Positions 21,001-64,000 of a stretch of DNA of 64,000 nucleotides are shown here, piece after piece. Every line of letters starts with the position of its first letter. Within the stretch, counting starts at the first letter, position 1. The position numbers are program-made. Source of the stretch: Elusimicrobiota bacterium (GTDB lineage: Bacteria > Elusimicrobiota > Elusimicrobia > UBA1565); assembly GCA_043827405.1 (NCBI GenBank), contig JBDRPD010000022.1, positions 9,169-73,168 of the forward strand. The letters are read 5' to 3'.

Positions 21001-24000
21001 CAGGCCAGGAAGTTCCAACGCGCGCCATGCCACAAGCCGCTGATCAAGAAAGTGATGAAGAGATTCAGCTGCCATCTCCATATTTGGGTCCGGCTCCCGC
21101 CCAAAGGGATATATAGATAGTCTTTAAACCACGTCGAGAGCGAAATATGCCACCGCTGCCAGAAATCCCGTATCGAGCGGGCATGATAAGGCCGGCGAAA
21201 ATTCAGCATCAAACGGATCCCCAGAATCCGCGCCGATCCGATCGCGATATCCGAATAGCCGGAAAAATCGCAGTAAATCTGAAAGGCGAAAAAGACCGTG
21301 GCCAACAGCAAGGGCGGACCGGAGAATTTGCCGGGATCTCCGTATACGTGGTCGACAAAGAGAGCCAGCCGGTCGGCGATGACGACCTTTTTGATTAGAC
21401 CCCATAGGACTAATTTCATCCCCTCCGTTATTCGCGCATAATCGACGACATGCTCTTTTTTGAATTGATGGATCAGATTCGCGGCTCTTTCGATCGGGCC
21501 GGCCACCAACTGCGGGAAAAATGCGACGTACAGCGCGTAATAGCCCAGGTGCTTTTCGGGCTTGATCGTCCCGCGATAGACATCGATTGAATAGCCCATG
21601 GTCTGGAAAGTAAAAAAGGATATGCCGATCGGCAGGAGGAGGCTCGATCGAGAGGGCGAATACGAATAATCAAACAAGGCGAGGAGCTGCGCAACAGCCT
21701 CCTGGAAGAAATCGTAATACTTGAAGGCAAATAGAAGTCCCAGATTGACCGCGATGCTCAATATCAAGAGGCTCCTGCGGGTATTTTTGCTCTCGGCTTT
21801 GCCCAGCATAATGCCGGCCGAATAGTCGATGAGGGTCGATATGACGATGAGCAGCAGATAGGCCGGCTCCCAGTACATGTAGAAGAAGTAGCTCGCCAGC
21901 AGCAGGAAGATCCAGCGCGCCCTCTGGGGCAAAGAGAAGTTGACCAATACGACGGTCGGCAGGAAGATGAAAAAGGCGATCGAGTTAAATGACATGCTCT
22001 TGGCGGCTTGCCGCCTTGACTAGAGATTAGCTAACGCGGCGGAAATGCGCCAGGGGGCGCCCAGCGATGCGAAGCGGCATATGCTAAAATCGATCCGCGA
22101 ATGAACCGATCAACCGATCAGATGCAGTTGGAGATGCTTCGTCGCATGTCTCCGGATCAAAAACTCGCGTTGGCCGCCCAGTTGCGGGAGGCCAACCTCG
22201 CGCTGCTGGCCGCCGGCATACGGGCTCGATCGGGCGATCTCCCGGCCGAAGAACTGCGGCTCGAGATGCTGAAAGCGATCCTCCCCAAGCGGCTTTTCGA
22301 AGCCGGTTACCCACGCCCTTGACCCAAGAAGAGATCCTTCGGGACGCGCTGCGCCTGCTCGGCAGGCTCGGCATCGAGTACATGCTGACCGGCTCCTTCG
22401 CATCCAACGTCCATGGGCGGGTCAGGTCCACCTTCGACGCCGACATCGTGGTGGTTCTCAAGCCCGCGCAATTGAAAATGCTGATTGATTCGCTCGGAGC
22501 GGACTATTACGTCGACAATGTGACGCTCCCCGAGGTCCAAGAGTCTGGCGGGAAGCTCAACTCCCTGCACCGGCCGAGCGGGCTGAAGATCGACTTCTTC
22601 CTGGCAAGGACGGCGCGGGATCGCGAGGCGCTCGCGCGGCGCCGGACGATCCAGTTCGGCGGCGCCGAGATCGCCGTCATCGCTCCCGAGGATTTGATCC
22701 TCGCGAAGCTCCTCTGGGCCAAGGAGGGCGGCTCTGCCCGGCAGGTCGAGGACGCGCGCGGCATCGCCGAGGTCATGCGCGCCGAGCTTGATATGGAGTA
22801 TCTTGGGCTCAAGGCTCGTGAAAATGGTCTTGAGAACATCCTCGCGCAGATTCTGCGGTAGAGGAAATTCCTTTTGTAGAACTTCTCTGCTTTTCGCCGA
22901 ATTACGCCCTTGACCTAGCTCGCGCGGCGTGATCGCGCCAGGTGGCGGCTTAAGATCGGCGGGAAGGGATGGCGGCGGTGGGACCAAGATACATAACACT
23001 AATTATCTTGGGACTGGCAGCCGGCCGGCTAGGCGCTGGAGCGCAAGGCCGCGCGCAGGTCGATCCCGTGCTTGAGCAGGAGCAGGGGAAGCATGAGGGC
23101 CCAGGCGCTTTCCGGACCCGTGACTGCGGCCGCGCCGATGCCCGTGGTCAGGATGACGACCGCCAGCAGAGTGACGCCGACGGAGTTATAGAGAAGATTC
23201 ATCTTCAGCGGCTGCGAGAAATCGATCGCGATTTCCCTAAGGTGAACGTTCTCCGCGGCATAGACGAACGTGATCCAGAGGGCGAGCGCGAGCTCCCGGA
23301 CAAAGACGTTCCAGGAGAAATCCATGCTGCCGTTGTCGACGTGCACGAGTATGAAGGTGAAGAAGGCGAGGCCGCCCAGCAGCACGCCGTAGTCTCCCAG
23401 GCGGGACGGGATGTCCTCCTGCCGCATTGACCCCTCGGCCCACTTTATTTCGGCCGCCGTCGGGCGTCTCGCATAGCGCTGAATCCTCGCGCGCAGGGCC
23501 GGCAGCATCTTCCCATTCGAGATGCGAAGCATCGCATCGACCAGATAAAGCCGCACGAAGGTGCTCAGGATGAACGCGAACAGCAGTACTCGCGGATTGT
23601 CGTCACCGAGCGCGAGGGCGAATACCACGAGAGTGAGCGCCAGCAGGTGGCCGGAAACCGGCTTCATGGAGACCTTCATAGAAGCATACCCCGCGCGGCG
23701 GGAACATGCCAGGGTGCGGACGCAAAAAAGCCTTGCCCCCGCGAAATGCGCACCATATACTGTAGTTAAGGGTATTATGAAGAAGCCGTTCGGCAAGCGC
23801 GACATGCGCAGAAAACGCCGCCAGGACAAGGAACGCAAGGGCGGCGCCATCCCCGGACCGGTCAGTACGGCCCCCTCTCAGGTCGGCGTCCGGCTGGCCC
23901 CAGCGGCCGGCGCGGCCTCCTCCGGCGGTTCTCAGCTATCGGCATGGAATACTTTTGCCGGTGCCTTTGCCCGCGCCACCGGGCTCAGCGGCCAATCCGC

Positions 24001-63000: not shown

Positions 63001-64000
63001 AACTTGGCAATTTTGTAAAGCAATGCGGCTTTAGCCGCCAGCACGGCGGCCGCAGGAGGGAGCACCCCCGCCGCCGTAGCCGCTTTCAGCGTGGCCTTGG
63101 CCCATAAACCGAACAGCGTCCCGATCAGCAGCATCGCCGACGCCAAAGCGATCAGCGCCCGCGCCATGTCGTAGGTCTGCTGATACGGCGTCACGTTCGT
63201 CCCTTTAATCTTGGTGCCGCCGCCGCCGCTGCCGCCGCCGGCATCATCATAGCCGTCTTTATAACCGCCGCTGTAGCCGCCGCCGCTGGATCCCGCCGGC
63301 GAATATGGCGAACCGCCGCCGCCGCCCTCGGCCGGGCTGAAATTCGCATCGCTGCCGGCGCCGGACAGAGCCTGGCCGCCTCCGGTCGAACCCGCCCACT
63401 CGGCGTTATGGGCGCCGTAGGTGGTCTCCGCCGACTCGCCGCTGGCGGCGCCCATACTCTTGCGCATGCTGTCGAGCTTGCGTGAGGATGATCCGCCGCT
63501 GAAGCGTCCGCGCTTGACTGTCCGGCCCCGCACATTGCGCGCGGAGGCGGATGTCGTTTGCGCCTTTGCATTATCCTGCTCGATACGGCTCAGCTTGCCG
63601 CTCTGGCCGCCTTTGATCTTCGCATTTCCTTTATCCAGCATCCCCGACAGCGCCGCCGACGTTCCCGCGGCACCGCCGCCGCCCGCGCCCCCGGCGGCTC
63701 CCCCGCCATCCAGCGTGAGGTTGGAATTAGCCAACATCGGACGGTCCGTTACCTTTTTCTTCTTTCCCTTATCAGCCGCCGCTTCACCCTTTTCGGCCGC
63801 GCCTTCCTCGGCGGATCCAAGAGCTCCCTCTTCACCGGCGGACGCATCTTCCTCCGCCGCGCCCTCGCCCTCGCCGGCGGGAGCATCCGCCGCCGCGCCG
63901 TCCTGACCCGCGCCGCCGGCGCCGGCCCAATTGATCTCGCCCTGTCCGGCCTGCTCCATCAGCGCCAAGGAATTACTGCCCTGCGCGTCGCGCTTGGACT

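What a model noticed while it worked through the whole genome (the two positions that open the first line are those of the whole stretch)
23777..64000. Conserved envelope-machine operon: Tad pseudopilins, hydrophobic-hairpin array and a giant SecA-like ATPase
A ~50-kb run (C1:70181-78650 continuing into C22:73168-34432) encodes TadG- and TadE-like pseudopilins, an FtsH-like AAA protein, a tandem array of unannotated KEEKKGG...NVTP[WY]Q three-helix hydrophobic-hairpin proteins, three further unknown envelope proteins, a 3018-aa leader-bearing SF2 ATPase with SecA-type motifs, an HUH (Y1) gene and a 5435-aa outer-membrane protein. It is co-linear across the order and is the best candidate for an undescribed contact-dependent secretion machine serving the leader proteins.
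Evidence so far: C1 and C22 ends overlap by 141 nt inside one gene. Same gene order in G142, G090, G088, G239; next to the Tad operon/two-component genes in G088 and G239. TadE Pfam E 1e-3, NCBI names Tad/TadG for g00042 homologs. Hairpin family: 14 paralogs here, E<=6e-15, next hit 0.05; model with three confident helices; in 10 of 11 order genomes and 9 of 11 of family f5, 1 of 59 gut Elusimicrobia-type f4. g00675 has motifs in SecA order (MKTGAGKT 1523, DEMD 1610, GQWF 2610, SGT 2659, GGRG 2831, QGRID 2874; call 89) with ~1000 aa inserted where SecA has its preprotein-binding domain; model matches SF2 RecA2, longest aligned length to SecA (233 aa, Z 10.4; call 117). g00675 in 53 of 75 order genomes, 3 of [...]
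(Added by a program. Inside this text positions count along the whole contig: contig position 9,169 is position 1 of the stretch shown here. "Call 12" and the like, gene names such as g00115 and contig names such as C1 are that model's own, and its searches are not shown. The text may have been shortened before it was handed on; [...] marks where a part breaks off. The agent that wrote the report below was given it as the finding of a first reader that could run no searches.)

Follow-up and report, generated by a model that had tools for sequence, protein, structure and literature searches.

The report
Candidate cell-to-cell protein delivery machine
An uncultured groundwater Elusimicrobiota bacterium carries a conserved gene block for a giant outer-membrane channel protein, an exported SecA-like motor and membrane-hairpin proteins, which together probably deliver tagged enzymes and transporters into neighbouring cells by a route unlike the known secretion systems.

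Summary
The gene run is real and largely co-linear in relatives. Modelled, the 5435-aa protein holds an ~18-strand beta-barrel followed by TolC/OprM-like repeats, with a C-terminal membrane anchor. A short-insert homologue of the 3018-aa ATPase folds closest to SecA by Foldseek, but ties with FANCM/INO80 by Z-score, and sequence profiles do not single out SecA. The HUH gene has lost its first metal-binding histidine in 9 of 9 operon copies, which weakens a DNA role. ATPase and giant start with a signal-plus-Gly/Ala leader shared by 33 proteins here. Their passengers include ClpB-, Lon-, RNase R- and PPK2-like enzymes and MFS/ABC transporters. In one genus the ATPase ends in two different CDI-type toxin domains. 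The block splits into two modules: hairpins/u883 also occur where ATPase, giant and leader were not found. Best reading, inferred and untested: delivery of leader-tagged proteins into another cell (0.5). The scan noted the TolC repeats before in another genome (e1-4551178) and the leader elsewhere in this genome (e1-7074052). My searches found no paper on the locus.

The parts
62640..64000 (-). 3' part of a 550-aa hairpin protein that starts on contig C1. Upstream on C1 (outside the window): TadG-like 398 aa, TadE-like 176 aa, FtsH-like 576 aa, u363, two more hairpin genes
   Evidence: FtsH Walker A/B, pore loop, SRH and HEAGH motifs intact
61110..62630 (-). Hairpin protein, 506 aa: K/E-rich-GG start, weak N-terminal helix, Gly/Ala/Ser-rich linker, xTPY then hydrophobic helices
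   Evidence: no Pfam/PHROG hit
59499..61088 (-). Hairpin protein, 529 aa
   Evidence: ESM Atlas: only hypothetical Elusimicrobiota clusters at 0.83-0.84
57992..59353 (-). u453: N-terminal membrane anchor, Gly-rich linker, Cys-rich C-terminus (10 Cys)
55325..57976 (-). u883: conserved N-terminal 400 aa; marker of the hairpin module, also in family f5
51968..55219 (-). u1083: signal-peptide-like start, fast-evolving (22-32% to orthologues), no family
42791..51847 (-). 3018-aa SF2 ATPase: signal/leader, one marginally hydrophobic helix (~res 725-745), NBD1 (window 47380-46973), ~985-aa insert after motif II, motifs III-VI (44047-43148)
41711..42613 (-). RAYT-like Y1 gene with DnaA_C/HTH tail (300 aa from the MGRP start); HUH motif broken; flanked by inverted GTCTGACACC boxes; probable domesticated DNA-binding regulator (inferred)
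25264..41571 (-). 5435-aa giant: leader, hydrophobic helices (res ~460-530, ~1110-1160), long helical region, barrel, TolC-like repeats, C-terminal Pro-rich linker-TM-RRR tail
32650..33666 (-). Predicted ~18-strand outer-membrane beta-barrel (res 2636-2974)
   Evidence: strand count is mine, from DSSP; Z 15-16 to Wzi, OprD-family, AlgE, CdiB
29131..32409 (-). TolC/OEP-like repeats (res ~3055-4147): three half-repeats modelled, a fourth partly, the last two inferred
   Evidence: res 3106-3594, Z 16.5, rmsd 3.1 to OprM; for the later part; inconclusive
25330..25386 (-). C-terminal transmembrane anchor followed by a basic cluster
   Evidence: found in 42 of 66 family members, none of the last 13 listed (short paralogue clade or partial)
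23777..25267 (+). Convergent hairpin paralogue, 496 aa; not co-transcribed; not seen at this place in G012, G075, G088, G091
13735..18681 (-). Conserved downstream neighbours: 435-aa secreted protein, HAMP-PAS histidine kinase (15110-17299), LysM-FecR protein (13735-15249)
   Evidence: similar genes follow the giant in G012, G075, G088, G091, judged by length and N-terminal sequence

Best explanation
The locus encodes a machine that delivers leader-tagged proteins into a neighbouring (prey or competitor) cell. Step 1 (inferred): cargo, giant and ATPase cross the inner membrane by their Sec-type signal. Step 2 (fold predicted, role inferred): the giant, tethered by its C-terminal anchor, provides an outer-membrane barrel and a TolC-like tunnel, perhaps three protomer-equivalents in one chain. 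Step 3 (inferred): Tad-type pseudopilins and the long Gly-rich hairpin proteins make contact and seed a pore in the target membrane. Step 4 (inferred, least certain, about 0.3 on its own): the SecA-like ATPase is itself delivered, inserts by its marginally hydrophobic helices and ratchets polypeptide using the target's ATP. Cargo then digests protein, RNA, glycogen and polyphosphate, and inserted MFS/ABC/symporter domains release the products. The dead HUH protein and a shared upstream motif may co-regulate the set.
For: TolC/OprM top Foldseek hits, E 3e-6; Z 16.5, rmsd 3.1; OEP above Pfam cut-off in the G223 homologue. SecA/SecA2 fill all listed rows to rank 21, best E 1.4e-10, against 2e-7 for DinG/UvrB. 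Leader on 33 of 7519 N-termini and 0 of 2637 decoys, giant and ATPase included. 21 of 26 scanned leader proteins have Pfam passengers, mostly cytoplasmic or inner-membrane types. PPK2, RNB, Lon-like and one ClpB-like protein show no membrane helix between signal and enzyme. G075 and G073 ATPases are 84% identical over 687 aa, then end in CdiA_C (E 2e-19; next gene SitI3-like, E 5e-7, just under cut-off) or a domain matching PDB 8EY4 (E 5e-25); G074 repeats the CdiA_C-plus-partner pair. Leader found in f1 15/15, f2 2/3, f3 64/67, f8 5/5, and f5 0/30, tracking giant and ATPase. The four order genomes without leader (G006, G080, G081, G100) had no ATPase match. GGCCCA in 20 of 33 leader upstream regions against 60 of 501.
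Against: No target cell, export or expression is shown. The window's own ATPase has no toxin tail, nor do any of the 79 of 85 close homologues in which motif VI was located; the tails come from one genus, so they are not independent. G073 has no immunity gene behind its tail. The helix at res 725-745 could be a true transmembrane segment (summed dG 3.1, family median 4.1, against -0.7 for the giant's anchor but 1.4-3.5 for hairpin anchors), which would put the motor in the cell's own cytoplasm. SecA ties with FANCM and INO80 by Z (21.2, 21.6, 21.1) and is not singled out by sequence. Hairpin module and motor module are separable. G001 has 7 leader matches but no ATPase or giant match (88% complete). 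Protomer-to-protomer profile matches were not above controls except P1-P2. The signal part of the leader also scores on an ordinary secretin.
Confidence: 0.5

Rival explanations
1. A dedicated export line in the cell's own envelope, like accessory SecA2. The ATPase is a single-pass inner-membrane protein with its motor in the own cytoplasm, and pushes large leader proteins through the giant to the surface or medium.
For: Conserved hydrophobic helix before the motor (30 of 79 homologues pass KD 1.6); intact Walker A in 84 of 85 and motif II DExD in 84 of 85; a self-export role was proposed for SecA-like domains of Omnitrophota giants (10.1101/2023.11.21.568195, passages).
Against: Cargo has ordinary-looking signal peptides and a canonical SecA is present. 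ATP-dependent or cytoplasmic passengers have no use outside a cytoplasm. Nuclease-type toxin tails behind the motor would sit in the producer's cytoplasm.
Confidence: 0.25
2. Two co-regulated but independent envelope modules: a pilus/adhesion or envelope-bridging module (pseudopilins, hairpins, u453, u883) and a structural or efflux giant with an unrelated ATPase. The leader is only a lineage-typical signal peptide.
For: u883 in f5 19/21 with giant 0/21 and no true ATPase orthologue; three f5 loci end after u883; f8 has ATPase and giant but no u883 match. HUH and giant are missing at the locus in G072 and G099.
Against: Adjacency is kept across families f1, f3 and f11; shared upstream motif; toxin tails and cytoplasmic passengers remain unexplained.
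Confidence: 0.15
3. DNA handling (uptake, transfer or repair): the SF2 protein is a DNA translocase and the HUH protein a relaxase or transposase.
For: FANCM, INO80, DinG and Snf2 score as high as SecA by Z; DinG/XPD also insert a domain between motifs II and III (recalled); Pfam names ResIII, not SecA_DEAD; RAYT-like boxes flank the HUH gene.
Against: First HUH histidine lost in 9 of 9 operon copies but intact in 3 of 3 non-operon paralogues; signal-like N-terminus in 69 of 84 ATPases by a crude pattern; Foldseek ranks SecA first.
Confidence: 0.07

Closest known systems
SecA / accessory SecA2 translocation ATPases
   Same: SF2 motifs in SecA order; insert leaves and returns by a beta-stem at the place of the preprotein-binding domain; in-register likeness before motif III; top Foldseek match.
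   Different: Signal peptide and ~1480-aa N-terminal part; helical insert of 141-1099 aa instead of the preprotein-binding domain; no SecA Pfam hit; no SecY-like gene seen in the locus; motif VI reads GRID-x-x-R.
TolC/OprM outer-membrane factors (type I secretion, RND efflux)
   Same: Half-repeat fold of beta-hairpin plus long helices.
   Different: Repeats lie inside one 5435-aa chain behind a separate barrel and before an inner-membrane anchor; no ABC/RND or adaptor gene in the locus; cargo has N-terminal signals.
Omnitrophota giant proteins with divergent SecA DEAD domains (West-Roberts et al. 2023, 10.1101/2023.11.21.568195; passages read)
   Same: Divergent SecA-like motor in a large signal/TM-bearing protein near pilus genes, with fused enzymes (6071-aa G223 homologue carries PPDK domains); predation proposed.
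   Different: Those hit SecA_DEAD Pfam and carry enzymes in cis in >30,000-aa chains; here cargo is mostly in trans with a shared leader, and there is a TolC-barrel giant (TolC: 0 mentions in that paper).
Myxococcus Kil Tad-like killing apparatus (Seef et al. 2021, PMC8460266; passages read)
   Same: Tad-type pseudopilins proposed to act in contact-dependent attack.
   Different: No Tad ATPase, platform or secretin gene in this locus; a SecA-like motor and TolC giant were not mentioned for Kil in the passages read.
CDI / polymorphic toxin systems (CdiAB, SitAI)
   Same: Swappable C-terminal toxin with adjacent immunity gene on a conserved carrier in genus g26.
   Different: Carrier is an SF2 ATPase, not a filamentous haemagglutinin or lipoprotein; most family members, this one included, have no tail.
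REP-associated tyrosine transposases (RAYT)
   Same: Y1_Tnp plus DnaA_C architecture, flanking boxes.
   Different: HUH motif lost; fixed position before the giant at 46-64% identity across families.

Membership tests
SecA family | SF2 motor with intact Walker A and DExD | tested here: met
   84 of 85 each
SecA family | SecA_DEAD / SecA profile match above cut-off | tested here: not met
   ResIII only; no SecA chain among PDB profile hits
SecA family | Closest fold is SecA | tested here: inconclusive
   Foldseek yes; VIA-align tie with FANCM/INO80, SecA lowest rmsd 3.4; model is of the G083 homologue
SecA family | Preprotein-binding domain between motifs II and III | tested here: inconclusive
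   Position and beta-stem kept, insert is all-helical and variable; not searched on its own
SecA family | Soluble cytoplasmic protein acting with SecYEG | tested here: not met
   Signal-like N-terminus in 69 of 84; SecY binding not tested
TolC/OEP outer-membrane factor | OEP half-repeat fold | tested here: met
   Pfam OEP over cut-off in G223 homologue; 5 of 24 members hit OEP in the third unit, best E 3.5e-5
TolC/OEP outer-membrane factor | Six half-repeats closing a 12-strand channel | tested here: inconclusive
   Three modelled, the fourth hairpin low-confidence, the last two by profile and features only
Type I secretion system | ABC transporter and membrane-fusion protein with the OMF; cargo with C-terminal signal | tested here: not met
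   No such Pfam among locus proteins; cargo carries an N-terminal leader
Tad / Kil apparatus | TadE/G-type pseudopilins with prepilin cleavage site | tested here: met
   RG-Q / GG-QATTE starts; TadE E 0.0011, under cut-off; NCBI names
Tad / Kil apparatus | CpaF ATPase, platform and secretin in the cluster | tested here: not met
   T2SSE and secretin matches lie elsewhere, e.g. a pair at C83:129-132 kb, not typed
CDI (type Vb) | TpsB/CdiB exporter and haemagglutinin-repeat carrier | tested here: not met
   No such Pfam; barrel ties with many porins, CdiB Z 15.4
Polymorphic toxin system | Variable C-terminal toxin with adjacent immunity gene | tested here: inconclusive
   Met in G074 and G075, toxin only in G073; absent in this genome and in 79 close homologues
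RAYT / Y1 HUH nuclease | His-hydrophobic-His metal site | tested here: not met
   First His lost in 9 of 9, both lost in 7 of 9
Any contact-dependent delivery system | Cargo transfer into a second cell | not testable with these tools
   No culture or proteome data

The most novel reading that the evidence does not exclude
A new class of secretion system for predation. One polypeptide spans the envelope as barrel plus single-chain TolC trimer; hairpin proteins open the target membrane; an exported SecA-derived motor runs on the target's ATP; and some 30 leader-tagged unfoldases, proteases, RNase, PPK2, amylases and transporters turn the target into a feeding chamber.
Probability: 0.3. Interest if true: 0.95.

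Novelty: categorically new. Interest (0 to 1): 0.8.

Why it matters
It would add a protein-delivery route built from SecA and TolC parts in an arrangement that fails the membership tests run here for type I, Tad/Kil, CDI and SecA systems. It would also suggest a predatory or parasitic life for a widespread order of free-living Elusimicrobiota (ATPase in 82 and giant in 84 of 101 genomes). [quoted passage not shown] Even under the rivals, a signal-peptide-bearing SecA-like motor and TolC repeats fused behind a porin-like barrel are unusual.

Tried and rejected
Profile searches of the PDB with the whole-ATPase alignment returned only coiled coils; the short-insert and giant alignments returned nothing significant. 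Profiles of NBD1 and the C-terminal part did not place the genome's SecA in the top 14 ORFs, and hhalign scored SecA, two DEAD-box proteins and UvrB alike (summed 56.5, 56.3, 53.1, 54.4). The 1.84-billion-protein search gave 100 hits; these looked like family members or fragments, 19 were scanned with Pfam and none hit SecA. Whole-protomer hhalign of the TolC units was mostly at control level. The complex prediction of three TolC units gave no answer (score 0.02) and is not used either way. No RNA holder was listed; three same-study metatranscriptomes gave only three 31-nt pieces. PHROGs: 0 of 15 proteins. ESM Atlas named no family for the hairpin; its OEP call for res 3690-4200 (0.94) had recognition under the bar. 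The weak NheB hit for one hairpin (E 0.012) was not pursued. Genes inserted behind the ATPase in G021 and G039 were not toxin cassettes by Pfam. Eleven weak phylum-wide ATPase-profile hits covering only the Walker A region in 280-940-aa frames were dropped as other SF2 helicases. The sigma-70 scan was at chance level. A motif script for the HUH table printed nothing; counts come. Paper searches showed no description of this locus; the Meheust preprint has 0 mentions of pili, secretion, TolC or SecA. Supplements were not read, and most subscription journals are not in the library.
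Full report
Observation. The minus strand from 64000 to 25264 carries three hairpin genes, u453, u883, u1083, the 3018-aa ATPase, a Y1 gene and the 5435-aa giant. 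The run continues on C1 through a 141-nt assembler overlap inside one 550-aa gene to two more hairpin genes, u363, an FtsH-like protease with intact motifs, and TadE- and TadG-like genes. Named homologues are almost all Elusimicrobiota MAG proteins. The ATPase was found in 82 of 101 order genomes and the giant in 84 of 101. The single-protein query misses divergent copies: G074 scored 0 but matched. Of 13 related loci examined, 5 keep the whole order and the rest keep part of it. Two-component genes precede the TadG-like gene in G088; I did not see a Tad operon next to it. The hairpin gene at 23777-25267 is a convergent paralogue.

The giant. A model of residues 2580-3700 (45 sequences, pLDDT 74, pTM 0.55) shows a barrel of about 18 strands and then units of beta-hairpin plus long helices. 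Foldseek ranks TolC, OprM, ST50 and SilC first (E 3e-6). VIA-align gives Z 16.5, rmsd 3.1 over 307 residues to OprM for residues 3106-3594, and Z 15-16 to 18-strand porins for the barrel. A distant homologue passes the Pfam OEP cut-off. Beyond the model, OEP likeness recurs near residues 4057-4131 (hhalign E 8e-4, against 0.07 or worse outside the TolC region), in 5 of 24 family members and by Atlas features (weak). By eye, six units alternate in the TolC pattern, which would make three protomers in one chain. This is an inference: whole-unit comparisons were mostly at control level and the fourth hairpin is poorly modelled. A Pro-rich linker, membrane helix and basic cluster end 42 of 66 family members.

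The ATPase. Walker A and DExD are intact in 84 of 85 homologues each. The insert after motif II is 141-1099 aa (80 of 85 measured, median 677, here 985). I therefore folded the whole motor of a short-insert homologue (G083, 749 aa, pLDDT 79). Foldseek lists only SecA/SecA2 down to rank 21 (best E 1.4e-10; DinG and UvrB 2e-7). The wide search ties the SecA DEAD motor (Z 21.2, rmsd 3.4) with FANCM (21.6, 4.1) and INO80 (21.1, 4.1). Read beside the genome's own SecA, the stems match in register: PALTIG against PLIISG after motif II, and QTIATI...GFSGTA against QTLATI...GMTGTA before motif III. Profile scores, however, do not separate SecA from DEAD-box proteins or UvrB, and Pfam says ResIII. So it works like, and probably descends from, SecA, but it fails membership. 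Its N-terminus is signal-like in 69 of 84 (crude pattern) and 49 of 79 homologues have no strong helix before the motor. One marginal helix is conserved, so topology is open.

Toxin tails. In genus g26 the ATPases of G075 and G073 are 84% identical over 687 residues and then diverge. G075 and G074 end in a CdiA_C-type domain followed by a SitI3-like gene. G073 ends in a domain matching PDB 8EY4, a PT-VENN-protein C-terminal domain (E 5e-25), with no immunity gene. That 8EY4 is the E. coli O32:H37 CDI RNase is recalled; I read only the abstract of PMC12585627, which does not name the entry. Other homologues carry an AAA_5 tail, a kinase-like tail (by eye) or PPDK domains. Such tails make sense if the motor end reaches another cell's cytoplasm. 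They are absent here and in 79 close homologues.

The HUH gene. All 9 operon copies read have lost the first histidine and 7 have lost both, whereas 3 non-operon paralogues keep N-H-x-H. It keeps 46-64% identity, a DnaA_C/HTH tail and flanking CTG(A/G)CAC boxes near likely promoters. A domesticated regulator is the simplest reading (inferred). It is missing from the locus in g26, G072 and G099.

The leader and its cargo. A profile seeded on 12 hand-picked N-termini and iterated found 33 of 7519 ORF starts and 0 of 2637 internal decoys. It is a basic-hydrophobic-PG-x-AxA signal followed by a Gly/Ala-rich stretch. I scanned 26 of these proteins; 21 have Pfam passengers: two ClpB-like, Lon-like, RNB, PPK2, ABC, four MFS (one with ATP-grasp), a dicarboxylate symporter, MscS, Rce1, M48/M50, three subtilases, two amylases and a VWA protein. 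For PPK2, RNB, Lon-like and one ClpB-like protein no membrane helix lies between signal and enzyme; the second ClpB is ambiguous, and my pattern found no Walker A in the Lon-like protein. Their upstream regions are enriched in GGCCCA (20 of 33 against 60 of 501, Fisher p 4e-10, best of all hexamers tried), and similar GG-CC motifs lie in the operon's gaps (by eye).

Two modules. In samples of the phylum and class, the giant was found in f1 3/3, f2 1/1, f3 15/20, f8 3/3, f11 1/1 and not in f4 (0/81), f5 (0/21) or f14 (0/70). Strong ATPase hits follow the same pattern, as does the leader (f5 0/30; f4 7/91, weak only). u883 differs: f5 19/21, f8 0/3, and three f5 loci hold u363-hairpins-u453-u883 with nothing of the motor module. 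Kin are not independent, and giant and ATPase carry the leader themselves, though most genomes give 5-23 matches.

Mechanism. I favour delivery of leader-tagged proteins into another cell (0.5), because signal peptides on ATP-dependent cytoplasmic enzymes and toxin tails on the motor both point to a second cytoplasm. Shown here: gene order, predicted folds, motif states, leader, passengers, tails and co-distribution. Inferred: export, conduit, pore formation, where the motor works, and predation. Rivals are an own-envelope export line (0.25), two independent envelope modules (0.15) and DNA handling (0.07).

Known systems. West-Roberts et al. describe divergent SecA DEAD domains in Omnitrophota giants and suggest self-export (passages); a 2026 preprint finds pilus genes beside such giants (10.64898/2026.06.07.730766, passages). 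Zhang et al. note SecA-like domains among Amoebophilus effectors with lineage-specific N-termini (PMC3482391, passages). Kil uses a Tad-like apparatus for killing (passages). Elusimicrobiota are rich in unannotated huge proteins (passages) and in type IV pilus genes (10.1101/2022.07.08.499144, passages); this genome has 22 T2SSE-family matches. Seven searches showed no paper on this locus; supplements were not read. The locus fails the tests for type I secretion, a complete Tad/Kil cluster, CDI and SecA proper, so I rate it a candidate new kind of system, function unproven, interest 0.8.

Noticed in passing
G000 C99:25740-37823 (L125/L126): A 4027-aa paralogue of the giant (38% identical) that aligns only from residue ~1400 on; the short paralogue clade lacks the C-terminal anchor.
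   Followed up: partly
G000 C108:76890, C28:2787, C91:34815 (L122-L124): Three further TadG-like paralogues, each beside Gly-rich membrane-protein genes; C108 also has a u453-like gene and a TPR-kinase.
   Followed up: partly
L176:1270-19482 and L179 (G223, G189): 6071-aa and >4246-aa ATPase homologues in family f8 with long C-terminal extensions; G223 carries PPDK_N and PEP-utilizer domains.
   Followed up: partly
window 19544-21995: MBOAT gene and partner in a low-GC stretch (0.52) between the hairpin paralogue and the histidine kinase; looks inserted.
   Followed up: no
window 41638-41665: An 11-pair stem with a T-run between the HUH gene and the giant; it contains the GG-CC motif and may be a terminator or binding site.
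   Followed up: partly
G000 C83:129073-131894: Secretin next to a T2SSE-family ATPase: candidate Tad locus, far from the pseudopilin genes; not typed.
   Followed up: no
L015:9264-10313; L033:9700-11454; L134:4566-5591: Genes inserted between ATPase and HUH gene in relatives include a lytic transglycosylase, an O-antigen-ligase-TPR protein and a TrkA-type channel.
   Followed up: no
G000 C68:2-23557, C42:3-18605, C62:1-16803: Three further ORFs of 5600-7850 aa, cut by contig ends.
   Followed up: no
G039 C1:2547055-2563761; G065 C1:357184-387487: Giant and ATPase are broken into overlapping frames in these near-complete assemblies, probably by long-read indels.
   Followed up: no
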